Shown here: piece after piece, positions 12,871 through 53,376 of the stretch | Layout: the number at the start of each line of letters is the position of its first letter | Numbering within the stretch: the stretch's first letter is position 1 | Assembly: GCA_009839835.1 (NCBI GenBank) | Contig: VXOY01000010.1 | Coordinates: 4,025-68,024, forward strand | Direction: 5' to 3' | Source of the DNA: Candidatus Spechtbacteria bacterium SB0662_bin_43 | GTDB taxonomy: Bacteria > Patescibacteriota > Minisyncoccia > Spechtbacterales > 2-12-FULL-38-22 | DNA length: 64,000 nucleotides | Notes under the pieces: generated by a model | Seen by the model: only the letters and a program-made list of their open reading frames with translations | What the model was told of the DNA's origin: nothing | The model's database searches: none | Position numbers and translations under genes: made by a program

Positions 12871-15408
12871 ATGGCAAATTCCAAAGAAGCACAATCACGG
12901 ATAAAGATTAACAAGTTTTTAGAAGACGCAGGGTGGCGGTTTTTTGATACAGAAAAAGGTGAGGCAAACATTCGGCTTGAAGCCAGTGTAAAAATAACCC
13001 AACAAGATATTGATGAAATGGGAGAGGATTTTGAGAATACCCAAAGAGGATTTGTAGATTATTTATTGTTGGATGATAAGGGATTTCCTTTTGTTGTCTT
13101 GGAAGCAAAGAGAGAAGGTAAAAATCCATTAGATGGTAAAGAACAAGCACGTAGGTACGCCCAGTCGCAGAATGCCAGGTTTGTTTTACTATCAAATGGC
13201 AATACGCATTACTTTTGGGATTTGGAAAGCGGTAACCCAGAAGTTATTATAGAGTTTCCAAAACAAGAATCATTGTTGCATCGTTCAGGGTTTCAGCCAG
13301 ATAACCAACGGCTATCCAGTGAAAGCGTTAAAGAGGATTATATTGCTTTGACGCAAAATCCAAACTATAAAGAGGATCCTCGTTATCGGGACAAAAGCAC
13401 AAGGGAAGAATATCTCTCTCAGGAGGACTTACGAATTTTACGTCCCTATCAACTCAGAGCAATTCATGCATTACAAAAGAGTGCTGGTGAAGGTAGTACC
13501 AGGTTTCTCTTTGAGATGGCAACAGGTACAGGGAAAACTCTTGTGGCAGGTGCGGTTATAAAACTTTTTTTGAGAACAGGCAACGCGAAACGAATTTTGT
13601 TTTTGGTTGATAGAGTAGAATTAAAAAATCAGGCGTATGATAATTTTAATACTTACTTAAAGAACGATTGCACATCTGTTATTTATAAAAACAACAGAGA
13701 CGACTGGCAGAAGGCAGAGATAGTCATCTCAACTGTTCAGAGTCTTGCTTCTCAAGATAAGTATAAGAAGTTTTCGCCAACTGACTTTGGCTTGGTGATT
13801 TCTGATGAGGCACACCGCTCAATTGGAGGGAGTAATGGGAATTATAGGGCAGTGTTTGAGTATTTTGTCGGATATAAGTTGGGACTCACCGCAACACCAA
13901 AAGATTACTTGAAAAATGTTGATTCACAAAAATTACCTCAAAAAGACCCTCGTGCGTGGGAACGTAGGCAGCTTTTGGATACCTATACGACTTTCGGTTG
14001 TCCAAGCGGTGAACCAACATTTCGTTACACACTAATCAGTGGTGTGAAAGATGAATATCTTATCAATCCTATTGCTGTTGATGCACGAACAGAAATAACC
14101 ACTCAGTTACTTTCAGAAAAGGGCTATGCTATTATTGCTGAGAATGATGAAGGAGAAAAAGAGGAAGGAGTGTTTTTTCATAAAGATTTTGAGAAAAAGT
14201 TTTTCTCAGATAATACTAATAAAGCATTCTGTGGGACGATTATTAAAAATGCTCTGCGAGATCCTATCAGCAGAGAAATTGGCAAGACCATTGTGTTTTG
14301 TGTTAGACAGAGCCACGCTTCTAAGATTACACAGATATTGAATCAAATGGCGGACAAAGTGTGGCCTGGCAAATACAACTCTGACTTTGCGGTACAGGTC
14401 ACATCAAATGTTCCTGATGCTCAACAAATGACGATGAATTTCGCAAACAATAATCTTACAGGACGCACCAATTTTCTCCCTGGTTATAAGTCAAGCAAGA
14501 CAAGAGTATGTGTAACAGTCGGGATGATGACAACAGGATATGACTGCAAGGATATTTTAAATCTTGCGTTGCTTCGTCCTATTTTTTCTCCAACAGACTT
14601 TGTGCAGATTAAGGGACGAGGTACCCGTAAGTTTACCTTCGGGTACAAAAATGAAGATGGGGAAGAGATAAAGAAAGAAAAAGATACATTCAAGATGTTT
14701 GATTTCTTTGCGAACTGTGAGTATTTTGAGGAAAAGTTTGATTATGATGAGGCACTCCAATTGTCAGTTGCACAGAGGAATGGCAGTAGTTTTTCTGCGG
14801 ATGATTTCAGCATCCAAAGTACGATGGACGAGGCAACTACTTATGCTCCTGATACTGTTACTCGGTACAAAGAAAAGCAGATTAGCAGTGCAGGGATGAA
14901 AGTAGATCGTAAATTATTTGAAAAAGCCAAAGAAGAAATTGGAAAGGATAAAGATATTCAAGATGCTGTTATGCAAGAACAGTGGGACAAGGCAATCAAT
15001 ATCACTGTGCATAAGTATCAAGATAAGCCTGAGCTCTATATCAATCTTGATAAACTTCGTCGTAGCGAGAGCTTAGATAGACGATTGACGTGGCGTGAGG
15101 TATTAGAGCGAGTATTTGGATTTGTTGATACCTTTCCATCAAAAGATGAAAAATTAGAGGAAGAATGCGAGAAGTTTATCTCTATTGATAAGCCCAAGAG
15201 TAAGTATGTACCATATATTAAGAATTTTATTAAGGCATACCTTACAGATGAAAGGTTTCATGCAATTATTGAAAACAGAAACTATGGAGAGCTCAATAAC
15301 TACGCGGGTTTTCCAATGTCAGATTTTAAGGCATTAGGAGAAGATTTACGCAAGAAATTACCCGAATACATAAAAGATTATATACCCATCAATCAATATA
15401 AGGAATAA
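12871..15408 (+). CDS. hsdR: Type I restriction enzyme R subunit (compact, 845 aa)
   Basis: N-terminal HsdR_N nuclease MANSKEAQSRIKINKFLEDAGWRF...DYLLLDDKGFPFVVLEAKREG. SF2 motifs EMATGTGKT (I), DEAHRS (II), LGLTATP (III), TTGYDCKD / QIKGRGTRK (V/VI). Confidence 0.85.
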   Translation: MANSKEAQSRIKINKFLEDAGWRFFDTEKGEANIRLEASVKITQQDIDEMGEDFENTQRGFVDYLLLDDKGFPFVVLEAKREGKNPLDGKEQARRYAQSQNARFVLLSNGNTHYFWDLESGNPEVIIEFPKQESLLHRSGFQPDNQRLSSESVKEDYIALTQNPNYKEDPRYRDKSTREEYLSQEDLRILRPYQLRAIHALQKSAGEGSTRFLFEMATGTGKTLVAGAVIKLFLRTGNAKRILFLVDRVELKNQAYDNFNTYLKNDCTSVIYKNNRDDWQKAEIVISTVQSLASQDKYKKFSPTDFGLVISDEAHRSIGGSNGNYRAVFEYFVGYKLGLTATPKDYLKNVDSQKLPQKDPRAWERRQLLDTYTTFGCPSGEPTFRYTLISGVKDEYLINPIAVDARTEITTQLLSEKGYAIIAENDEGEKEEGVFFHKDFEKKFFSDNTNKAFCGTIIKNALRDPISREIGKTIVFCVRQSHASKITQILNQMADKVWPGKYNSDFAVQVTSNVPDAQQMTMNFANNNLTGRTNFLPGYKSSKTRVCVTVGMMTTGYDCKDILNLALLRPIFSPTDFVQIKGRGTRKFTFGYKNEDGEEIKKEKDTFKMFDFFANCEYFEEKFDYDEALQLSVAQRNGSSFSADDFSIQSTMDEATTYAPDTVTRYKEKQISSAGMKVDRKLFEKAKEEIGKDKDIQDAVMQEQWDKAINITVHKYQDKPELYINLDKLRRSESLDRRLTWREVLERVFGFVDTFPSKDEKLEEECEKFISIDKPKSKYVPYIKNFIKAYLTDERFHAIIENRNYGELNNYAGFPMSDFKALGEDLRKKLPEYIKDYIPINQYKE

Positions 15409-15415
15409 TAAAGTT

Positions 15416-15485
15416 AGTTTACATCTCTTGACGAGATATAAACTAAATCGCATTTTAGTTTATATCTATAGGTAAGATGTAAACT
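15416..15485. promoter_or_regulatory. Nested perfect palindrome (A-B-loop-B'-A') in the hsdR / AlbA_2-gene spacer; candidate operator or RNA hairpin
   Basis: agtttacatct(15416-26) ... gatataaactaaa(15435-47) tcgca tttagtttatatc(15454-66) ... agatgtaaact(15475-85). A further gatataaacta copy at ~15558. Confidence 0.4.
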
Positions 15486-15597
15486 AAAATAAAAGATAGT
15501 TTTTGTTGACTGATGAAATCTGAGTTAGGTCGCGATTTAATGTATAGTGATAGGCGTGATATAAACTATTGTCCAAAAATATGCCATAATAAATAGC

Positions 15598-17031
15598 ATG
15601 GATGATATCGTGAATACAATTCTGAATATCCCAGAAGAGACACAAACCATTGAGTTTAAACGTTTAGCTGGCGATAAAGTTGTTCGTAAGATTTTGCAGA
15701 CTATCGTTGCTATGGCAAATACTGATGGCGGAACGATTATCTTAGGCGTTGATGACCCAGAGAAGACAGCATTGAAGGGATGTGATAGGATTTTCGGAGT
15801 TGAAGAGGATAAGGTTTTGCTTGATGAGATTTTGAAAGAGCAGTCAAAAATTAATCCACAACTTCAAGGTATTCAGTTTCGCCATATCAAGGCACAAGGT
15901 GATAAAACAATTGTTTTGATAACAGTTGAAAAATCTAAAGAATCATTAGTCTCATTGAGTAATGATGTTTTTACTCGTCTCAATAAAAGTAATAAAAAAT
16001 TAAACCCACAAGAAATTGTAAAGTGGAGTTATACCAAAGGATTTATAAAGGCGGATAAAGAATTGGTGGATGTGGATTTTGAACTTTTACAGACAAAATA
16101 TTTTGATGTCTGGTGCGGTGCAATGGGTATCTCTGGAGGAACCATCCAAAGCATTTTATCTCAGGCTGGTTTGGCAAAAAAAGGTCAGGAAGAAATCTTG
16201 CGACCAACAAGAGCAGCCGTTCTACTTTTCGCCGAACATCCTACTTACCTAATGGAAATACATTGTACTGTGCGAGTTATACAACTCCGAGGCACATTAG
16301 AACGATTTGAGACTGTTCCTAATTATGTTAGTAAGCCAAAAACTATTGGTGGTCCAATCATAGAAGTAATTCGTAATTCTCACGAGTATGTTTTGAGTTT
16401 ATTGGGGGCAGGTATAGAAATTCATTCTGGTTTTGTTAATACTTTTAAGATTCCCGAACGAGCAGTGAAAGAGGCTATTACGAATGCTGTCATACATCGT
16501 GATTACCGTATTCAAAGAGATGTTGAGATTCGTGTTTTTGAAGATAGAGTTGAGGTATTAAGTCCTGGGCTATTTACTTATAATATAACTGCGAATAATA
16601 TAGGGTTCGTGCGTGCAGATGGTGAGAGGAATGATTTGCTGGTCAAACATCTGCGAGAATTTCCTAATCCACCGAATTTAAACTTCAATGAAGGCGTTCG
16701 TGCAATGAGGGCGGAAATGGATAAGCAAAATTTATACCCTCCGATTTTTATGACATACCCTACATACCCTGACTCTGTGAACGTTATTCTCCTGAACGAA
16801 GAAAGACCGACAGAGTGGGAAAAGGTAAGACTATACCTATCAAGAAATAGGTATATTGATAATAAAACAGCAAGAAACATAACAGGGGTTGTACAAATGC
16901 ATGATATGTCACGTATGCTCAAGAGATGGACAGAGCAAGGATTTTTGGTAAAAATTGATGCCGAGTCTAAGTATTTTAAGGGTACAAAATATAAATTAGC
17001 AAATATTGATGAGATGGGTATAGAGCAGTGA
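15598..17031 (+). CDS. AlbA_2 (Schlafen-like, divergent AAA) + HATPase_c_4-like + wHTH protein embedded in the hsd operon
   Basis: N-terminal ETQTIEFKRLAGDKV...MANTDGGTIILGVDD (AlbA_2/pfam04326-like). C-terminal EAITNAVIHRDY block typical of the RecG-C-terminal-like HATPase_c_4 domain. Stop 17031 sits 10 nt before the hsdM start. Confidence 0.7.
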   Translation: MDDIVNTILNIPEETQTIEFKRLAGDKVVRKILQTIVAMANTDGGTIILGVDDPEKTALKGCDRIFGVEEDKVLLDEILKEQSKINPQLQGIQFRHIKAQGDKTIVLITVEKSKESLVSLSNDVFTRLNKSNKKLNPQEIVKWSYTKGFIKADKELVDVDFELLQTKYFDVWCGAMGISGGTIQSILSQAGLAKKGQEEILRPTRAAVLLFAEHPTYLMEIHCTVRVIQLRGTLERFETVPNYVSKPKTIGGPIIEVIRNSHEYVLSLLGAGIEIHSGFVNTFKIPERAVKEAITNAVIHRDYRIQRDVEIRVFEDRVEVLSPGLFTYNITANNIGFVRADGERNDLLVKHLREFPNPPNLNFNEGVRAMRAEMDKQNLYPPIFMTYPTYPDSVNVILLNEERPTEWEKVRLYLSRNRYIDNKTARNITGVVQMHDMSRMLKRWTEQGFLVKIDAESKYFKGTKYKLANIDEMGIEQ

Positions 17032-17040
17032 GAGTTTTAC

Positions 17041-19512
17041 TTGCAAACCCAAATGCAAGTAAAACTTAAAACCCCATTAAATAGGCAAAAAACAGCATCT
17101 TTACTTGCAAATCACTCAAAATTCACTATGTTAGATGCAGAAACAAAACGACACATTGATGCAGCAAGGCAAGTTCTTGTTGGTAAGGTGCCAGACCCAA
17201 AGGCGCAAGTAGACCAAATTACCACAGCCTTGATTTACAAGTTTATGGACGATATGGACAAAGAGTCGCAGGAGCTTGGTGGTAAGGCACAATTTTTCTC
17301 TGGGGATTTTAGTCAATATTCGTGGACGAAGATTTTAGATAGTAAATTATCTGGACAAGAGCGATTCAATTTGTATAATGAAGCAATTAAGAAGATGCCT
17401 CGCAATGAAAATATACCCCAACTTTTCAGAGATATTTTCAAAGATGCACTTCTACCATATCGCGATTCTGCAACTCTTTCACTGTTCTTGAAAGAGATTG
17501 ATAATTTTACATACGATCATAGCGAGAATCTGGGCGATGCATTTGAATATCTACTCTCTATACTTGGCTCGCAAGGGGACGCAGGTCAATTCCGCACACC
17601 TCGTCATATTATTGATTTTATTGTTGATGTTGTAGATCCAAAAAAGAATGAGACTATTTTGGATCCTGCGTGTGGAACAGCAGGCTTTCTTATATCCGCG
17701 TACAAGCATATTGTTGAAAATAATGATGGCAAGGATAATAAAACAGGAGAATTAACAGATAAAGAAACAACCTTAACACCAGACGAAAAACAGCGACTGG
17801 TCAAGAACGTTGTAGGGTATGATATTTCGCCCGATATGGTGAAGCTATCGTTGGTGAATATGTATCTTCATAAGTTTACCAGTCCGCAGATCTTTGAGTA
17901 CGATACTCTTACCAGCGAATCAAGATGGGATGATCAATTTGATGTAATCCTGGCTAATCCACCATTTATGACACCAAAAGGTGGTATTCGTCCACACAAG
18001 CGATTTTCCGTTCAAGCGAGTCGTTCCGAAGTACTTTTCGTGGATTACATTTTGGAGCATCTTAACTTAAAAGGACGTGCAGGTATTATTGTGCCTGAAG
18101 GGATTATATTCAAAGCAGATAAAGCATATAAATCACTCCGTAAGAAATTGATAGATGATGGATTGGTTGCTGTCGTGAGTTTACCTGCAGGCGTGTTTAA
18201 ACCATACTCAGGCGTAAAAACATCAGTTTTATTTTTTGATAATCAGGTTGCAAAAACAACAGATGAATTATTGTTTATAAAAATAGAAAATGATGGGTAT
18301 GAACTTGGAGACCAGAGGAGAAAAATCAAGGAGAATGATTTACCCGAAGCACTGGAAGTATTACAGCAATGGAAGCAGGGTAAGAAGAAAGAAAGCGAAC
18401 TTGCTTTATGGGTGAAGAAAGAAAAAATCGCAAAAAGCGAGGATTATAGCTTGGTAGGCGATAGATATGGAGAAGTAAAAGAAAACAAAAAGCAAAAATA
18501 TCCAATGGTGGAACTGGGAGAGGTTTGTGGTTTTCAGCGTGGCACAATGATTACGAAGAATATGACAGAAGAAGGCGATGTTCCTGTAATTGCGAGCTCT
18601 AAACGACCTTCGTACTACCACAATCAATCTAATAGACAGCCGCCTACGATTACAATATCATCATCTGGTGATGCTGGTTTTGTCAATTTTTTTGAGATTC
18701 CTATATTTGCATCTGACTGTTTTACGGTAGAACCCTTAGATAAAGATCAAATCAATATCTATTTTCTTTACTCTATACTAAAATCAAAACAAGAGTGTAT
18801 CTATAAACTGCAGAAAGGGGTAGCGCAGAAACATGTGTATCCAAAGGATATATCAACAATCAAGATTCCTCTTCCGCCACTTAAAATTCAACAACAAATC
18901 GTGGAAGAGATTGAAGTAAAGCAAAATGCCATCAATCATGCTCAAGAAATCATCAAAAATCTAGAGAGAGAGAGATTGTATTTTGGTAACGAAATTAGAA
19001 AACTAAAAAATGTAAAATGGGTTGAATTGGGTGAGGTGGTACAGACGATTGTTCCACCAAAAAAGATTAAAAAGAGAGATTTTGCACAAGTGGGAGATTA
19101 TCCAATTATAGATCAGTCACAGAGTCAGATTGCTGGGTGGAGTAGTGATGAATCTGCGGTTGTTAAAATTCAAAATCCTGTGGTAATATTTGGCGATCAC
19201 ACGTGCGCTATAAAATACGCTGATAGGCCGTTTATTCAAGGTGCTGATGGTTGTAAAATACTAGAGGTGTGTAGTAATTTGATGCCTAAATTTTTATTTT
19301 TCTATTTAAAAAATCACCCTATTCAAAAAGAAGGGTATAAGCGCAATTTCACTAGACTCAGGTTACTCAAAGTTCCTCTCCTGTCACATGAAATTCAAAA
19401 ACAACTCGTCGCAGAAGCAGAAAAAGAAGAAGCAATAATCAAAGCAAACCAAACCCTTATTAAAATAATGGAAGATAAGATTGATAAGGTTTTGCGGGAG
19501 GTAGGCAAGTAG
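17041..19512 (+). CDS. Type I R-M methyltransferase-specificity fusion (HsdM N-terminal ~480 aa + full two-TRD HsdS)
   Basis: HsdM motifs DPACGTAGFL (motif I) and ILANPPF (motif IV). S part: two TRDs, each opened by VELGEV, separated by the conserved IPLPPLKIQQQIVEEIE central repeat. Confidence 0.85.
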   Translation: MQTQMQVKLKTPLNRQKTASLLANHSKFTMLDAETKRHIDAARQVLVGKVPDPKAQVDQITTALIYKFMDDMDKESQELGGKAQFFSGDFSQYSWTKILDSKLSGQERFNLYNEAIKKMPRNENIPQLFRDIFKDALLPYRDSATLSLFLKEIDNFTYDHSENLGDAFEYLLSILGSQGDAGQFRTPRHIIDFIVDVVDPKKNETILDPACGTAGFLISAYKHIVENNDGKDNKTGELTDKETTLTPDEKQRLVKNVVGYDISPDMVKLSLVNMYLHKFTSPQIFEYDTLTSESRWDDQFDVILANPPFMTPKGGIRPHKRFSVQASRSEVLFVDYILEHLNLKGRAGIIVPEGIIFKADKAYKSLRKKLIDDGLVAVVSLPAGVFKPYSGVKTSVLFFDNQVAKTTDELLFIKIENDGYELGDQRRKIKENDLPEALEVLQQWKQGKKKESELALWVKKEKIAKSEDYSLVGDRYGEVKENKKQKYPMVELGEVCGFQRGTMITKNMTEEGDVPVIASSKRPSYYHNQSNRQPPTITISSSGDAGFVNFFEIPIFASDCFTVEPLDKDQINIYFLYSILKSKQECIYKLQKGVAQKHVYPKDISTIKIPLPPLKIQQQIVEEIEVKQNAINHAQEIIKNLERERLYFGNEIRKLKNVKWVELGEVVQTIVPPKKIKKRDFAQVGDYPIIDQSQSQIAGWSSDESAVVKIQNPVVIFGDHTCAIKYADRPFIQGADGCKILEVCSNLMPKFLFFYLKNHPIQKEGYKRNFTRLRLLKVPLLSHEIQKQLVAEAEKEEAIIKANQTLIKIMEDKIDKVLREVGK

Positions 19513-19529
19513 TGGCAGGATGATTATTT

Positions 19530-20234
19530 ATGGATTCTGTATATCAAATTTTTGATTATTTACCGATTAGATATCAGATAGACAGCGATTTTGATTATTT
19601 TGAATTTCTCAAAAACTCAGTAGAACAAAATTATCACATAGAGAATTATCATTTTGCAAGCATTGCACTCCACATGGTGTTTATGGGGATTGTATACCAT
19701 CACCTTTATATCTTGACTTGTGAGAGTGGTGGAAGACGAGATGCTCTGTTAAGAGATTCTAAGAAGATTCGTAATCAATACAATAAAAGAGGGAAAGTAT
19801 TGTCTTGGCAAAATTTTTCATCAGAAAATGAGCGTAGTGTTTTTAAATTCTTGAAGACTGTTGGAGCAAAAAATGATATGATTGATCAGTTGAAGCAGTT
19901 AGTTGATCAACGCAATGACTTAGTCCATACCAACGGATCGCTTTTGCAAGATCAGGTGCTTTTCGATGAGAAGGCAAATGACTATTTGCAAGGTATTAAA
20001 AATATCCACTATGTTTGTAGAGAGGAATATAAAAATTTATTTTTGAAGTTCTTGAATGAACTTCAATTTGATATTGAGGATATTCAGGATGCCGAGATGT
20101 ATCTTGAAAATTTCATTCGTAAATATGCTGTTAGCAGAAATTTACTTTCACATCTCGGAGATATAGTGCCAAAGAGTAGATATCTCCAAGGAACCCAATT
20201 ACTGTATAGTATTATTCAGGACAGGGGTTTGTGA
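19530..20234 (+). CDS. Hypothetical 234-aa protein, possible HEPN-like (R-x4-H) Abi-type component; 18 nt after hsdMS stop
   Basis: Soluble, helical-looking sequence. Single R-x4-H motif QRNDLVHT. Operonic spacing with hsdMS. No firm family call. Confidence 0.55.
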   Translation: MDSVYQIFDYLPIRYQIDSDFDYFEFLKNSVEQNYHIENYHFASIALHMVFMGIVYHHLYILTCESGGRRDALLRDSKKIRNQYNKRGKVLSWQNFSSENERSVFKFLKTVGAKNDMIDQLKQLVDQRNDLVHTNGSLLQDQVLFDEKANDYLQGIKNIHYVCREEYKNLFLKFLNELQFDIEDIQDAEMYLENFIRKYAVSRNLLSHLGDIVPKSRYLQGTQLLYSIIQDRGL

Positions 20235-22081: not shown

Positions 22082-22249
22082 TGTTTGTCTTGTGGAATAC
22101 GTGTGGAAGGATTGGGTATTGTATATTTTGGTGGTGTGATGTATAATGATTGAACCGAAATGTACAAGGTATATTTTGGTGTTCTTTGAAAATTGAATAC
22201 GAGTAAATAGTTATACAACAACCATTTATAGTTGTTTCGAATATTTTTT

Positions 22250-23707
<1,458 letters not shown>

Positions 23708-24031
23708 ACATTTTTTTGTAGTTTTTTTCTTTTCTCTATCTTTTTTGAAAAGAGGAAAATGAAGTTGTCGACCAGATAGTATGTTTTGTGTAGTAGTGAT
23801 TTTCCATTGTTCTTTGATGATGGAATTTGATCTACGAACACAACACGTACAACAGCGATGAGGCAGGAATGGTACTTTCATATTCGTATGAAAGTACCAT
23901 TCCTTGCCTTGTCTCTGTATGCTGAAATGAGGGAAAGCATTTTCTTTCTCTGCTTGTAGGCAAGCTACACAGGAGTATGAACCTGTATTTCATATAATAT
24001 TCGGAACAACTATGAGTGGTTGTGTAACCTC

Positions 24032-34056: not shown

Positions 34057-34512
34057 ATGGGAAAAAGCGTCCGTTATGATACATCCTTTGGCGTTGTCCC
34101 TGTGTTGCAAGAGCAAGCAGAGTGGTATTTTCTTCTCATACAACACCAGACAAGCGACCCTTCCGAAAAAGGGCACTGGTCATTTCCAAAGGGACATAAG
34201 GAGAGTGGCGAAACAGACATTGAAACAGCAGTTCGGGAATTGAAAGAGGAAACAGGCATCGTTGATATGAGGCTGCACGATGAATGTGTTTTTGAGGAGC
34301 GTTACTCGTTTTGTGTTGATGGCATAGATGTGTATAAAACGGTAGTGTATTTTTTGTGCGTTGTAAAAAATCGCAACGTCGCTATTCAGATAGACGAAGT
34401 TGCAGACTATCAATGGGTTGCGTACGAAGACGCCTTACAAAAAGCGTCTTACGATAACACGCGAAACATTATTACGCAGGTGAATCGTGTTTTGCGCACA
34501 GGAAGTTTTTAA
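34057..34512 (+). CDS. NUDIX hydrolase
   Basis: Nudix box GHWSFPKGHKESGETDIETAVRELKEETGI. Confidence 0.85.
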   Translation: MGKSVRYDTSFGVVPVLQEQAEWYFLLIQHQTSDPSEKGHWSFPKGHKESGETDIETAVRELKEETGIVDMRLHDECVFEERYSFCVDGIDVYKTVVYFLCVVKNRNVAIQIDEVADYQWVAYEDALQKASYDNTRNIITQVNRVLRTGSF

Positions 34513-48221: not shown

Positions 48222-48323
48222 AGAGAATACGATTTTACTTTTTTATGCCCAGCTTATGTATAAAGACAATTTCATATACAGTGGTGGTAGTTTATGCATA
48301 AAAAAGTAAAATCGTATTCTCTC
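48222..48323. repeat. Family-B long-hairpin intergenic element, copy 1 (27-bp perfect stem)
   Basis: agagaatacgattttacttttttatgc ... cccagcttatgtataaagacaatttcatatacagtggtggtagttta ... gcataaaaaagtaaaatcgtattctct. Confidence 0.65.
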
Positions 48324-52188: not shown

Positions 52189-52281
52189 TTCGCGCCTCTA
52201 CGGGCGGAGCATTCATTTGCTCCGCCCGTTCCATTTTTAATCTCATTCTTTTTTTTAGTGCAGAGATTTTCTCATAGAGAG

Positions 52282-52384
52282 TATAGACGATGGTATTTAC
52301 TTTTTTATGCCAAGGTCATCTATGAAACAATTGTATCTATATAGGTAGTATTTATGCATAAAAAAGCAAATACCATCGTCTATA
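52282..52384. repeat. Family-B long-hairpin intergenic element, copy 2 (29-bp stem, one mismatch)
   Basis: tatagacgatggtatttacttttttatgc-caagg...gtagtattta-tgcataaaaaagcaaataccatcgtctata. Confidence 0.6.
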
Positions 52385-52497
52385 ATGTATAACTTGTAGC
52401 GAACAATAAGAGAGTTTTATAGATATAAACGAATTTTTACAATGGGGATTTATCCAGTATCGTAAACGAGCAAGATGGTGTATACTTATAAGAGTAT

Positions 52498-53196: not shown

Positions 53197-53226
53197 CAGC
53201 ATCTCTATTACGAAACTATCAACGTA

Positions 53227-53308
53227 GAATTTTCTTTTTTATGCCCAGCTCACTACAAAGACAATCTTGTGTACGGTAGTGGCATTGTATGCATAAAAAA
53301 GAAAATCC
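53227..53308. repeat. Family-B long-hairpin intergenic element, copy 3 (shorter stem)
   Basis: gaattttcttttttatgc-ccagctcactacaaagacaatcttgtgtacggtagtggcattgta-tgcataaaaaagaaaatcc. Confidence 0.6.
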
Positions 53309-53376
53309 TCCCGCTGATACTCATTAATATATACACAAACAGCGCAGTGTTCGTTATCATTTAATTCGTTATTTTT

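What the first reader, a model, noticed from the sequence alone, without database searches (positions are those of the whole stretch)
15416..15485. 70-nt nested perfect palindrome (A-B-B'-A') plus extra half-sites between hsdR and the embedded gene
agtttacatct / gatataaactaaa / tttagtttatatc / agatgtaaact form two concentric perfect inverted repeats (11 and 13 bp). A third gatataaacta copy lies ~100 nt downstream.

This is far beyond chance in a 190-nt spacer. It looks like either a multi-site operator (for the wHTH of the downstream protein or a controller) or a stable RNA hairpin separating hsdR from the downstream transcript. A recombination/insertion scar marking where the embedded gene entered is another possibility.
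Basis: seen in the sequence. Interest (0 to 1): 0.5.

Follow-up and report, generated by a model that had tools for sequence, protein, structure and literature searches.

The report
Inserted palindromic repeat cluster after hsdR
The "nested palindrome" is real, but it is four copies of a single 13-base motif, most likely an inserted hairpin-forming repeat cluster behind the restriction gene; the neighbouring Schlafen-type gene has its own, different, widely conserved DNA signal on its other side.

Summary
The sequence is as described and far beyond chance. It is not two motifs (A-B-B'-A'). It is one 13-nt arm, TTAGTTTAYATCT, used four times in alternating orientation (15414-15487).

The whole 189-nt spacer consists of two tandem copies of an 82-nt unit, one intact and one decayed. 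The "third copy" is the best-preserved arm of the decayed one.

Five sister R-M/S operons have only 2-10 nt at this junction, so the spacer is an insertion. The same arms form a palindrome family that sits just after stop codons of unrelated genes in Chitinophagaceae-type contigs. That family is present or absent between close strains.

The embedded SLFN-GHKL-wHTH ("Schlatpase") gene carries its family's own conserved tripartite module on its 3' side (17035-17109), with a different half-site (TTTTACTTGCA).

Best reading (about 0.4): a REP/BIME-like palindromic repeat cluster that acts as a stable hairpin behind the R cistron. Operator array: about 0.3. Recombination site: about 0.1.

The side finding is the more interesting result: an apparently undescribed module that covaries across phyla, next to Schlatpase genes.

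The parts
12871..15408 (+). R subunit gene (HSDR_N + ResIII, 845 aa). Its double stop codon TAATAA ends 6 nt before the first arm.
   Evidence: It is 100% identical to P0121, which is named as from MAG Candidatus Spechtbacteria bacterium SB0662_bin_43.
15409..15490 (+). Intact copy of the 82-nt unit.
15414..15426 (+). Arm 1, TTAGTTTACATCT (C variant). It pairs perfectly with arm 4.
15434..15446 (-). Arm 2. The + strand reads AGATATAAACTAA (T variant). It pairs perfectly with arm 3.
15455..15467 (+). Arm 3, TTAGTTTATATCT (T variant).
15475..15487 (-). Arm 4. The + strand reads AGATGTAAACTAA (C variant).
15491..15572 (+). Decayed second copy of the 82-nt unit. Its arms at 15496-15508, 15516-15528, 15537-15549 and 15557-15569 keep 7, 7, 8 and 10 of 13 bases.
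   Evidence: There are 53/87 identities at offset 82.
15557..15569 (-). It has 2 mismatches to the 13-mer.
15583..15591 (+). TGCCATAAT, an extended -10-like sequence ending 6 nt before the ATG at 15598. It is inferred only: it was read by eye, and the simple promoter scan listed no + strand promoter in the spacer.
15598..17031 (+). Embedded gene: SLFN_AlbA_2 + HATPase_c_4 (GHKL) + C-terminal wHTH ('Schlatpase', pSlfn-HisKinase-HTH class), 477 aa.
   Evidence: papers 10.64898/2026.05.29.728809, PMC13056530, PMC12839542
17035..17109 (+). Canonical 3' module of the Schlatpase family, not part of the finding but decisive for it. It consists of TTTTACTTGCA (17035-45), N8, TGCAAGTAAAA (17054-64), the box CCCCATTAAATAGGC (17072-86), and a third TTTACTTGCA (17100-09).
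17128..19512 (+). Fused M+S gene (N6_Mtase + Methylase_S). The likely true start is ATG 17128 (MLDAETKRHID...), not the TTG at 17041 given by the ORF list.

Best explanation
The palindrome is the intact copy of an ~82-nt unit that occurs twice in tandem and fills the whole R-to-Schlatpase spacer. Each unit holds two 33-nt palindromes (13-nt arm TTAGTTTAYATCT, 5-7-nt loop) in opposite orientation, an arrangement like a BIME built from REP units.

It is an insertion peculiar to this lineage of a widely exchanged R-[slot]-M/S operon. It belongs to, or derives from, a family of palindromic repeats that settle directly behind stop codons.

Mechanism (inferred): in the polycistronic transcript the intact copy folds into a ~31-bp interrupted hairpin that starts 6 nt after the R stop codon. 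This has three expected effects.
- It breaks the tight coupling (2-10 nt) seen between R and the next gene in sister operons.
- It can shield the R message from 3' exonucleases, or offer a double-strand processing site.
- It leaves the next gene to start from the AT-rich decayed copy, where TGCCATAAT ends 6 nt before an ATG that has no Shine-Dalgarno sequence.

Shown: the repeat anatomy, the tandem duplication, the insertion status, the existence of the dispersed family and its presence/absence polymorphism, and the separate conserved module of the Schlatpase gene.
Inferred: descent from that family, and any effect at the RNA level.
For: 1. One motif is used four times, and the arms are perfect while the loops are unrelated.
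2. The spacer is a tandem 82-nt duplication with one intact and one decayed copy. There are 53/87 identities, about 6.8 sd above control windows, and arm and non-arm positions are equally diverged.
3. The only difference among the four intact arms is C-G against T-A, placed so that pairs 1:4 and 2:3 stay perfect while 1:2 and 3:4 each get a mismatch. The minimum-free-energy fold is the nested hairpin, -30.8 kcal/mol, z = -9.4, with 0 of 200 shuffles as stable.
4. Five sister operons (L186, L188, L189, L201, L203) have 2-10 nt between the R stop and the next ATG. None has a clustered copy of the motif or one next to the R stop; only scattered single 10-mer matches with up to 1 mismatch occur.
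5. A metagenome scan for AGTTTAYATC-N7-11-GATRTAAACT found 102 loci.
   - None has a Schlatpase gene, and no neighbouring gene is conserved.
   - About 45 form one family, AGTTTACATCTTT..AAAGATGTAAACT.
   - That family lies intergenic, 4-25 nt after stop codons, between tandem or convergent genes in 23 of 24 cases that had a flanking ORF on both sides.
6. That family lives in Chitinophagaceae/Ferruginibacter-like genomes. Behind infB it is present in L180 but replaced by an unrelated hairpin in a strain whose IF-2 is 97% identical.
7. The Schlatpase family's own conserved module has a different half-site and is present here at 17035-17109.
8. The island has 34-40% GC against about 45% in the host flanks.
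Against: - No other copy exists in the 54 kb of host DNA in the window, so it is not a dispersed repeat of this genome as far as can be seen.
- Descent from the Chitinophagaceae family rests on a 10-11-nt arm that the search pattern itself imposed. I estimate (not computed) a chance hit on some palindromic family in a very large database at roughly 1-20%.
- Arms conserved with loops free, arm centres about 2 helical turns apart, and dyad centres 41 and 82 bp apart are equally what a protein-binding array would show.
- No U-tract follows the hairpin on the + strand, so there is no classical termination. The host's own terminators are classical.
- The promoter-proximal part resembles the proteobacterial-type Schlatpase modules. 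The distance from the right arm to the TAATAAA box is 30 against 31 nt, and the box plus ATG is 12/14 identical to L022/L059.
- No transposase or RAYT gene lies nearby.
Confidence: 0.4

Rival explanations
1. Operator array with an internal promoter. Three dyad-symmetric sites (centres 15430, 15471 and 15553, i.e. 41 and 82 bp apart) bind a dimeric or tetrameric sequence-specific protein that controls a promoter for the Schlatpase-M/S unit. The last site would cover -41 to -29 of a promoter whose extended -10 (TGCCATAAT) gives a leaderless mRNA starting at ATG 15598.
For: - The arms are identical while the spacers are unrelated, and arm centres are 20-21 bp apart.
- The motif is confined to this spacer.
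- The next gene encodes a wHTH protein of a family reported to tetramerise through its GHKL domain (paper 10.64898/2026.05.29.728809).
- The geometry resembles the proteobacterial-type modules: half-site GTTTAY-ATC against GTTTATTATC, the right arm 41 against 42 nt from the ATG, and the box TAATAAATAGCATG against TAATAAACAATATG.
- Those modules lie upstream of the Schlatpase gene in L025, L027, L029 and L032.
Against: - The wHTH clade to which this protein belongs is always accompanied by TTGCA-type sites, and that module is present here 3' of the gene.
- No relative has an IR array upstream. L186 has the same gene 10 nt after R.
- There is no other DNA-binding candidate in the island. The 234-aa protein carries an Rx4H HEPN-like motif.
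- Two of the three dyads lie far upstream (-170 to -110) of the putative start.
- The second copy has decayed as fast in its arms as elsewhere.
- The promoter scan found no + strand promoter scoring 9/12 or better in the spacer.
Confidence: 0.3
2. Site-specific recombination site, or the end of a small mobile element. The palindromes would be core-type sites (11-13-nt arms around a 5-7-nt centre) for a tyrosine recombinase or transposase. They would mark the border of the exchangeable slot between R and M/S.
For: - The slot is variable: empty (L201), Schlatpase (window, L186), Ymh (L203), or unknown 241-262-aa genes (L188-L191).
- The arm AGATGTAAACT matches 9 of 11 positions of the B. subtilis dif XerD arm TTATGTAAACT (sequence confirmed in PMC3025954).
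- The arm-spacer-arm geometry of 13-7-13 is like that of loxP or FRT.
- The unit is bounded by inverted TAGTTTAYATC ends and flanked by AATAAAG / AATAAAAG.
- In L027 a Schlatpase module is duplicated exactly on either side of an inserted vapBC pair.
Against: - None of five other occupied or empty slots has any such site at either border.
- No recombinase is encoded in the island.
- Both arms are alike and the centre is 7 nt rather than 6, unlike dif.
- The flanking direct repeat is fully explained by the 82-nt tandem duplication.
- The dispersed relatives are single palindromes behind housekeeping genes, not cassette borders.
Confidence: 0.1
3. Orphan Schlatpase-type module. On this reading the array is the 3' module of a different (proteobacterial-type) Schlatpase that once filled the slot. 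It was left behind when the present gene, with its own module, replaced the earlier one.
For: - It has the same position rule as all modules: it starts a few nt after the stop codon of the upstream gene.
- The half-site is one indel away from GTTTATTATC.
- Tandem modules are common in that clade (L022, L030, L037, L049, L061, L064).
- The similarity of the box and ATG is as described above.
Against: - The distance from the right arm of the IR to the end of the third site is 73 nt here, against a very tight 65 nt in that clade.
- The 'third site' matches only 8-9 of 13.
- No remnant of a second Schlatpase gene is present.
- The arm is identical, without any indel, to the Chitinophagaceae family.
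Confidence: 0.1

Closest known systems
REP / BIME elements (repetitive extragenic palindromes and their clusters, e.g. in E. coli and Pseudomonas)
   Same: - Short palindromes with conserved stems and free loops.
- Placed after stop codons and inside operons.
- Clustered in alternating orientation.
- Known to act as mRNA 3' stabilisers and to be present or absent between strains.
(The general properties come from my own knowledge. The local features come.)
   Different: - Each hairpin is made from two copies of a non-palindromic 13-mer.
- There are no other copies in the 64 kb of this genome.
- No RAYT gene is seen.
- There is no conserved GTAG-type 5' tetranucleotide.
- The dispersed relatives sit at the tip of longer, locus-specific hairpins.
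Controller (C-protein) operators of restriction-modification systems
   Same: Inverted-repeat sites inside an RM operon that could time R against M expression.
   Different: - There is no C gene (a small HTH_3 protein) in the island.
- The motif is unlike C-boxes (as I recall them).
- The sites lie after R, not before a C-R unit.
Defence-island regulators with palindromic operators (e.g. BrxR/WYL family, PMC9122601; CapW/CapH-type)
   Same: A DNA-binding protein encoded in a defence island with inverted repeats beside its gene. This is the closest analogue for the Schlatpase 3' module at 17035-17109.
   Different: - Those operators lie upstream of the regulator and the operon.
- The Schlatpase module lies 3' of, and often overlaps, the gene's last codons, and it has a third half-site 63-64 bp downstream.
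- The finding's array has no identified binder.
dif / Xer recombination sites
   Same: 11-nt arms around a short centre, and 9/11 identity of the arm to the B. subtilis XerD arm.
   Different: - The arms are symmetric.
- The centre is 7 nt.
- Several copies are present.
- The site is not at a replication terminus.
- The relatives are dispersed.
Intrinsic (Rho-independent) terminators
   Same: A hairpin directly after a gene.
   Different: - The stem is AT-rich.
- No T-run follows on the + strand.
- The host's own terminators are classical A-tract / GC-stem / T-tract hairpins.

Membership tests
REP/BIME-like palindromic repeats | Short (20-40 nt) palindromic unit with a conserved stem and a variable loop | tested here: met
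   There are two 33-nt units with 13-14-nt arms and loops of 5 and 7 nt that are unrelated in sequence.
REP/BIME-like palindromic repeats | Clusters of units in alternating orientation | tested here: met
   Unit 1 has C-type then T-type arms, and unit 2 has T-type then C-type arms, so unit 2 is the inverse of unit 1.
REP/BIME-like palindromic repeats | Extragenic, typically just after stop codons or between genes of an operon | tested here: met
   The array starts 6 nt after the R stop codon. The dispersed relatives lie 4-25 nt after stop codons, and only 1 of the 24 that had a flanking ORF on both sides lies between divergent genes.
REP/BIME-like palindromic repeats | Many dispersed copies in the same genome | tested here: not met
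   There is no copy outside the spacer in the 64-kb window. The rest of the genome could not be scanned. Dispersal is seen only in other, Chitinophagaceae-like genomes.
REP/BIME-like palindromic repeats | A cognate RAYT (Y1 transposase) in the genome | not testable with these tools
   Only 64 kb of the genome is available, and none was seen in the island.
Schlatpase 3' module (defined here) | Inverted repeat starting within about 0-50 nt of the stop codon of the upstream gene | tested here: met
   It starts 6 nt after the R stop codon. For the module family.
Schlatpase 3' module (defined here) | Third copy of the left arm, in the same orientation, at a fixed distance (site 1 to site 3: 63-64 nt in the CPR-like clade, 75-76 nt in the proteobacterial clade) | tested here: not met
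   The only candidates are 8-9/13 matches, at 82 nt from arm 3. The distance from the right arm to the end of the third site is 73 nt against 65 nt.
Schlatpase 3' module (defined here) | Half-site of the type that accompanies the local Schlatpase clade | tested here: not met
   The clade-typical TTTTACTTGCA sites are at 17035-17109. The array's arm is AGTTTAYATCT.
RM controller (C-protein) operator | Adjacent small HTH controller gene with C-boxes upstream of it | tested here: not met
   No HTH_3-type ORF was found in 12.0-22.2 kb by Pfam or NCBIfam.
Intrinsic terminator | G+C-rich stem followed by a T-run on the transcribed strand | tested here: not met
   The scan finds a terminator-like site only on the - strand. 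The + strand hairpin is followed by AAAATAAAAG.
dif/Xer-type core site | 11-6-11 layout with distinct XerC and XerD arms; one site per replicon | tested here: not met
   The layout is 11-7-11, both arms are alike, and the arm matches the B. subtilis XerD arm at 9/11. There are several copies here and many in other genomes.
MITE | Terminal inverted repeats plus a target-site duplication | tested here: inconclusive
   Inverted TAGTTTAYATC ends are present. The flanking AATAAAG / AATAAAAG repeat cannot be told apart from the 82-nt tandem duplication.
Known RNA families (Rfam 15) | Match to a covariance model | tested here: not met
   There is no hit at E <= 1 in 15000-16000. At gathering score, only 16S rRNA and one tRNA are found in the whole window.

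The most novel reading that the evidence does not exclude
The Schlatpase gene is bracketed by two sets of protein-binding palindromes. One is the family-wide tripartite module at 17035-17109 and the other is this array. Both would be read by the GHKL-oligomerised wHTH, or the array by a second, unidentified factor.

On this reading the suicidal Schlafen RNase is anchored to, and controls transcription across, the junctions with R and M/S. That would form a controller circuit for a restriction system built from an abortive-infection effector.

The part of this that does not depend on the finding is that the 3' module is the cognate DNA target of the Schlatpase wHTH. I rate that at about 0.4-0.5. 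The probability given below is for the array being part of the same circuit.
Probability: 0.15. Interest if true: 0.7.

Novelty: new member of a known kind. Interest (0 to 1): 0.4.

Why it matters
The array itself is an ordinary kind of object, a clustered palindromic repeat. It still has consequences. In this lineage it undoes the tight R-to-next-gene coupling that every sister operon keeps, so it probably changes the R:M expression balance of a restriction system.

What emerged on the way matters more. SLFN-GHKL-wHTH proteins were recently recognised as widespread back-up RNase effectors in RM and BREX loci (PMC13056530, PMC12839542, PMC13462974, 10.64898/2026.05.29.728809). The papers I could read give no DNA target for their wHTH.

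Here, about 40 loci from CPR bacteria, Proteobacteria, Planctomycetota and other phyla show a module at the gene's 3' end with three features:
- an inverted repeat plus a third half-site at a fixed distance;
- all three sites changing together from locus to locus;
- the module travelling with the gene whatever lies downstream.

This gives a concrete, testable candidate for what the wHTH binds, and for how the effector is wired to its neighbouring restriction or modification gene.

Tried and rejected
- **Rfam.** No hit at E <= 1 on the region, and nothing relevant at gathering score on the window.
- **Classical terminator.** Rejected because there is no T-run on the + strand.
- **Integron attC and C-box.** Neither the R''/R' cores nor a C gene is present (sequence inspection).
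- **First working idea: the array is the operator of the downstream wHTH.**
  - I found GTTTATTATC-N10-GATAATAAAC modules next to homologues and built on that.
  - I then found that the protein's own clade uses TTGCA-type sites, and that this module is present at 17035-17109. The idea was downgraded.
- **Do the hypervariable residues Q-x-x-x before MSR in the wHTH track the half-site?** There is no clear relation:
  - QTHD, QRDK, QLHV and QMHD all go with TTACTTGCA;
  - QTYK, QSYK and QTHK go with TCTCTTTGCA.
- **Is the module a cassette flanked by direct repeats?** No partner copy lies upstream.
- **RNA against DNA for the module.**
  - Third-site differences are wobble-compatible on the sense strand as often as on the antisense strand (5 against 5, by eye).
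  - G-U cells do not outnumber mismatches. The question is unresolved.
- **Conserved neighbour gene of the 102 metagenome palindromes.** None by BLAST clustering or Pfam.
- **Other collections.** Plasmid collection: no match to the spacer. Viral contigs: 5 unrelated hits.
- **234-aa protein.** It is unrelated to the slot genes of sister operons.
- **Tandem Repeats Finder.** It did not report the 82-nt duplication, which is too diverged. An ungapped comparison with controls did detect it.

Full report
**1. The observation**

The repeat finder gives two perfect inverted pairs:
- 15414-15426 with 15475-15487, 13 nt;
- 15434-15447 with 15454-15467, 14 nt.

The two "motifs" are one motif. TTAGTTTAYATCT occurs four times without mismatch, in the order + - + -. 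The arm centres lie at 15420, 15440, 15461 and 15481. The stretches between the arms (CTTGACG, AATCGCAT, ATAGGTA) are unrelated to one another.

With up to 1 mismatch, the 11-mer GATATAAACTA has 7 hits in 64 kb against 1.09 expected. No shuffle of 100 reaches 7, and five of the hits lie in this 189-nt spacer. Outside the spacer the motif is not enriched, even at 3 mismatches (28 observed against 42 expected).

As RNA, 15410-15492 folds into the nested hairpin at -30.8 kcal/mol (shuffles -9.4 +/- 2.3, z = -9.4). There is no Rfam match.

**2. Anatomy of the whole spacer**

The spacer is two tandem copies of an 82-nt unit. Positions 15409-15495 and 15491-15577 are identical at 53 of 87 sites. Copy 1 compared with 19,522 other windows of the island gives 24.7 +/- 4.2, with a maximum of 43.

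Copy 1 is intact. In copy 2 the four arms keep 7, 7, 8 and 10 of 13 bases.

Arm and non-arm positions are equally diverged between the copies (62% and 60% identity). Copy 2 has therefore simply decayed. Copy 1 has either been kept or is young.

The only difference among the four intact arms is C against T at position 9. It is distributed C, T, T, C, so the nested pairs (1 with 4, 2 with 3) stay perfect, while each local palindrome (1 with 2, 3 with 4) carries one mismatch. This is what pairing between the outer arms would preserve. It is also what makes unit 2 the inverse of unit 1.

**3. Context**

The island runs from about 12.1 to 22.2 kb and has 34-40% G+C, against about 45% around it. It lies between dapF and a 16S rRNA gene. 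Its genes, in order:
- an R subunit (HSDR_N + ResIII, 12871-15408);
- the SLFN_AlbA_2 + HATPase_c_4 protein with a C-terminal wHTH (15598-17031);
- a fused methylase-specificity gene;
- a 234-aa protein with an Rx4H HEPN-like motif;
- an OLD/AAA_15 ATPase.

The R protein is 100% identical to a protein named as from MAG Candidatus Spechtbacteria bacterium SB0662_bin_43. A second assembly (L081) is identical to the window from 15376 onward.

Recent papers describe the embedded protein class (pSlfn-HisKinase-HTH, "Schlatpase") as an RNase effector tied to RM and BREX loci. I found no DNA target for its HTH in those papers.

**4. Sister operons**

The same R-[slot]-M/S system occurs in many lineages at 68-75% R identity. 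The slot varies:

| Locus | Content of the slot |
|---|---|
| L201 | empty |
| window, L186/L187 | a Schlatpase |
| L203 | a Ymh protein |
| L188-L191 | unknown 241-262-aa proteins |

. In all five sister arrangements the R stop codon is 2-10 nt from the next ATG. None has a clustered copy of the 13-mer or one next to the R stop; only scattered single matches with up to 1 mismatch occur. The 189-nt spacer is therefore an insertion peculiar to the window's lineage. It is not needed for a Schlatpase to sit in the slot.

**5. What the Schlatpase family really carries**

I fetched 80 loci with homologues and found a conserved element next to the gene. It consists of:
- an inverted repeat that begins 0-50 nt after the stop codon and often overlaps it;
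- a gap of fixed length;
- a third copy of the left arm in the same orientation.

Thirty-seven such (+, -, gap, +) arrangements lie within -80 to +400 nt of the gene's end. The remaining 95% of the 750 kb holds 27. The three other possible orientations occur only 4-8 times each near the gene's end.

The half-sites differ from locus to locus, and all three sites change together. Examples are TTATTATC, TCATTATC, TTGTTATCC, GTTGTTTTCT, CCTTTATC, TTTATTTTCAAC, TTATTTAC, TTATTTGCA, TACTTGCA and ATTTCTCTTTGCAA.

In an alignment of 17 modules from the clade to which the window's protein belongs:
- sites 1:2 are 91.4% complementary, with 8 pairs changed on both sides;
- sites 2:3 are also 91.4% complementary, with 6 pairs changed on both sides;
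- 0 of 500 shuffles reach either covariation score.

The distance from site 1 to site 3 is 63-64 nt in 13 of 15 modules, about six helical turns. In the proteobacterial clade, the distance from GATAA to the end of the third TTATC is 65 nt almost without exception, with a TAAATCA-like box in between.

The module stays with the gene in several situations:
- when the neighbour is a housekeeping gene (guaA in L001, hslU in L052);
- when the gene stands alone (L082);
- whatever the downstream gene is (res, DUF1156, DprA-like, AAA_21 and others).

No partner copy lies upstream, so it is not a repeat-flanked cassette. In L027 the ~105-bp module is duplicated almost exactly on either side of an inserted vapBC pair.

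I cannot tell from sequence alone whether the module acts as DNA or as RNA. The fixed core spacing and the whole number of helical turns favour protein on DNA. Wobble statistics are neutral.

**6. Consequence for the finding**

The window has this module, but on the other side of the gene:
- TTTTACTTGCA (17035-45), N8, TGCAAGTAAAA (17054-64);
- a box at 17072-86;
- a third site TTTACTTGCA (17100-09);
- the likely true M/S start, ATG 17128.

The layout is the same as in L186. L193 has the same site-1 arm (TTTTACTTGCA) and loop (AACCCAAA); its site 2 (TGCATATAAAA) differs by two bases. Close relatives all have TTGCA-type sites, including those with the most similar recognition-helix residues (QTHD, QIHE, QTYE).

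So if the wHTH has a cognate site, it is that one, not AGTTTAYATCT. The array upstream is a different element.

**7. Where else the array's arms occur**

A scan of the metagenome collection for AGTTTAYATC-N7-11-GATRTAAACT returned 102 loci. None encodes a Schlatpase, and no neighbouring gene is shared.

About 45 of the loci form one family, AGTTTACATCTTT(N2-6)AAAGATGTAAACT. A smaller family has the centre CGCCGCGGCG. The properties below were counted on the first family; in the smaller one the upstream ORF, where one was found close by, ends 0-4 nt before the palindrome.
- They form the tip of longer hairpins whose outer stems are locus-specific.
- They lie 4-25 nt after stop codons.
- Among the 24 with a flanking ORF on both sides, only one lies between divergent genes.

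Their contigs are Chitinophagaceae-like. The IF-2 of L180 is 78-82% identical to that of Ferruginibacter MAGs. Behind infB the palindrome is present in L180. In a strain whose IF-2 is 97% identical, it is replaced by an unrelated hairpin.

So a palindrome with the window's arms is a dispersed, turnover-prone, terminator-position repeat in another phylum. That phylum also carries this RM operon family (the Saprospiraceae loci L201 and L203). In the window's own 54 kb of host DNA there is no copy, and the host's terminators are classical.

**8. Verdict on mechanism**

*Best supported (about 0.4).* A REP/BIME-like cluster of palindromic repeat units was inserted behind the R stop codon, later duplicated, and half decayed. 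Its intact copy acts through its hairpin. It ends the tight coupling of R to the next gene, and it gives the R message a structured 3' end or a double-strand processing site.

*Shown:* the anatomy, the duplication, the insertion status, the dispersed relatives, and the separate Schlatpase module.
*Inferred:* descent from the dispersed family (the shared arm is only 10-11 nt and was imposed by the search pattern), and every functional step.

*Main rival (about 0.3).* A protein-binding operator array with an internal promoter.
- For it: arms conserved against free spacers, spacing of two helical turns, a last site at -41 to -29 of a candidate leaderless promoter (TGCCATAAT, 15583-15591), and a resemblance to the proteobacterial-type modules.
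- Against it: there is no identified binder, and the second copy has decayed.

*Recombination-site and orphan-module readings.* I give each about 0.1. These two overlap with the main readings.

**9. Novelty and interest**

The array is a new member of a known kind and is of modest interest on its own. The conserved Schlatpase module is not described in the papers I could search. It gives a testable answer to what the wHTH of these defence RNases recognises. That raises the overall interest to about 0.4.

Noticed in passing
window 17035-17109 (and L001-L083, L186, L192-L195): A conserved tripartite cis-module lies at the 3' end of SLFN-GHKL-wHTH genes across phyla. It is an inverted repeat plus a third half-site at a fixed distance: site 1 to site 3 is 63-64 nt in the CPR-like clade and 75-76 nt in the proteobacterial clade. 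All three sites covary between loci. It does not appear in the papers I searched.
   Followed up: yes
window 17041-17130: The longest-ORF start (TTG 17041) and the start called in the ENA contig (equivalent to 17053) both fall inside the inverted repeat of the module. By homology with L186 (MLNSETKRKID), the start is ATG 17128 (MLDAETKRHID).
   Followed up: partly
window 48222-48322, 52275-52391, 53226-53309: There are three copies of a ~100-nt element. Its arms ..TTTACTTTTTTATGC / GCATAAAAAAGTAAA.. enclose a conserved 45-47-nt core (CCAGCTCAT.TATAAAGACAATTTTAT.TACAGTGGTGGTA). Pairwise identity is about 77%. It has no Rfam family and may be a small RNA gene or a host repeat.
   Followed up: partly
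L186-L191, L201-L203 and window 15409-17127: The position between R and M/S of this RM family is an exchangeable slot. It can be empty, or hold a Schlatpase, a Hypoth_Ymh protein, or unrelated 241-262-aa proteins. L201/L202 sit on an element with integrases and TrwB.
   Followed up: partly
L027 7394-7500 and 8484-8590: The ~105-bp Schlatpase module is duplicated almost exactly on both sides of a vapBC pair on the opposite strand. Identity ends sharply at the module's borders, which suggests that modules can serve as recombination or insertion points.
   Followed up: partly
Schlatpase homologues P0002-P0120, residues equivalent to window protein 432-435 (QMHD): Four residues just before the conserved MSR of the putative recognition helix are hypervariable among proteins that are otherwise 55-67% identical to the window's protein (QRDK, QVTK, QIDK, QTYK, QLHV, QTHD and others). 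They show no simple relation to the half-site sequence.
   Followed up: partly
L084-L185 (e.g. L096, L120, L150); L180 vs L204: In Chitinophagaceae-like contigs, a 30-nt palindrome AGTTTACATCTTTTTAAAAAGATGTAAACT forms the tip of long perfect hairpins whose outer stems (up to 16 nt in the programmatic count, about 25 nt by eye in L120) differ at every locus. They lie directly behind stop codons of housekeeping genes. The palindrome is present or absent between strains with 97%-identical IF-2.
   Followed up: partly
window 19530-20234: The 234-aa protein after M/S has no Pfam or PADLOC hit. It carries an Rx4H motif (RNDLVH) and a weak HepT/HEPN match (E = 0.018), so it may be a second RNase effector in the island.
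   Followed up: no
window 22246-23718 and 34285-34377: The 16S rRNA gene stands alone directly after the island, with no 23S rRNA gene detected anywhere in the 64-kb window. ARAGORN calls a 93-nt tRNA-Ile(GAT) 10.5 kb downstream that Rfam does not report at gathering score.
   Followed up: no
L081 (ENA ERZ23491722 scaffold_473) vs window 15376: An independent assembly of the same organism starts 38 nt before the palindrome array, inside the 3' end of R. This suggests that assemblers break at this junction.
   Followed up: no
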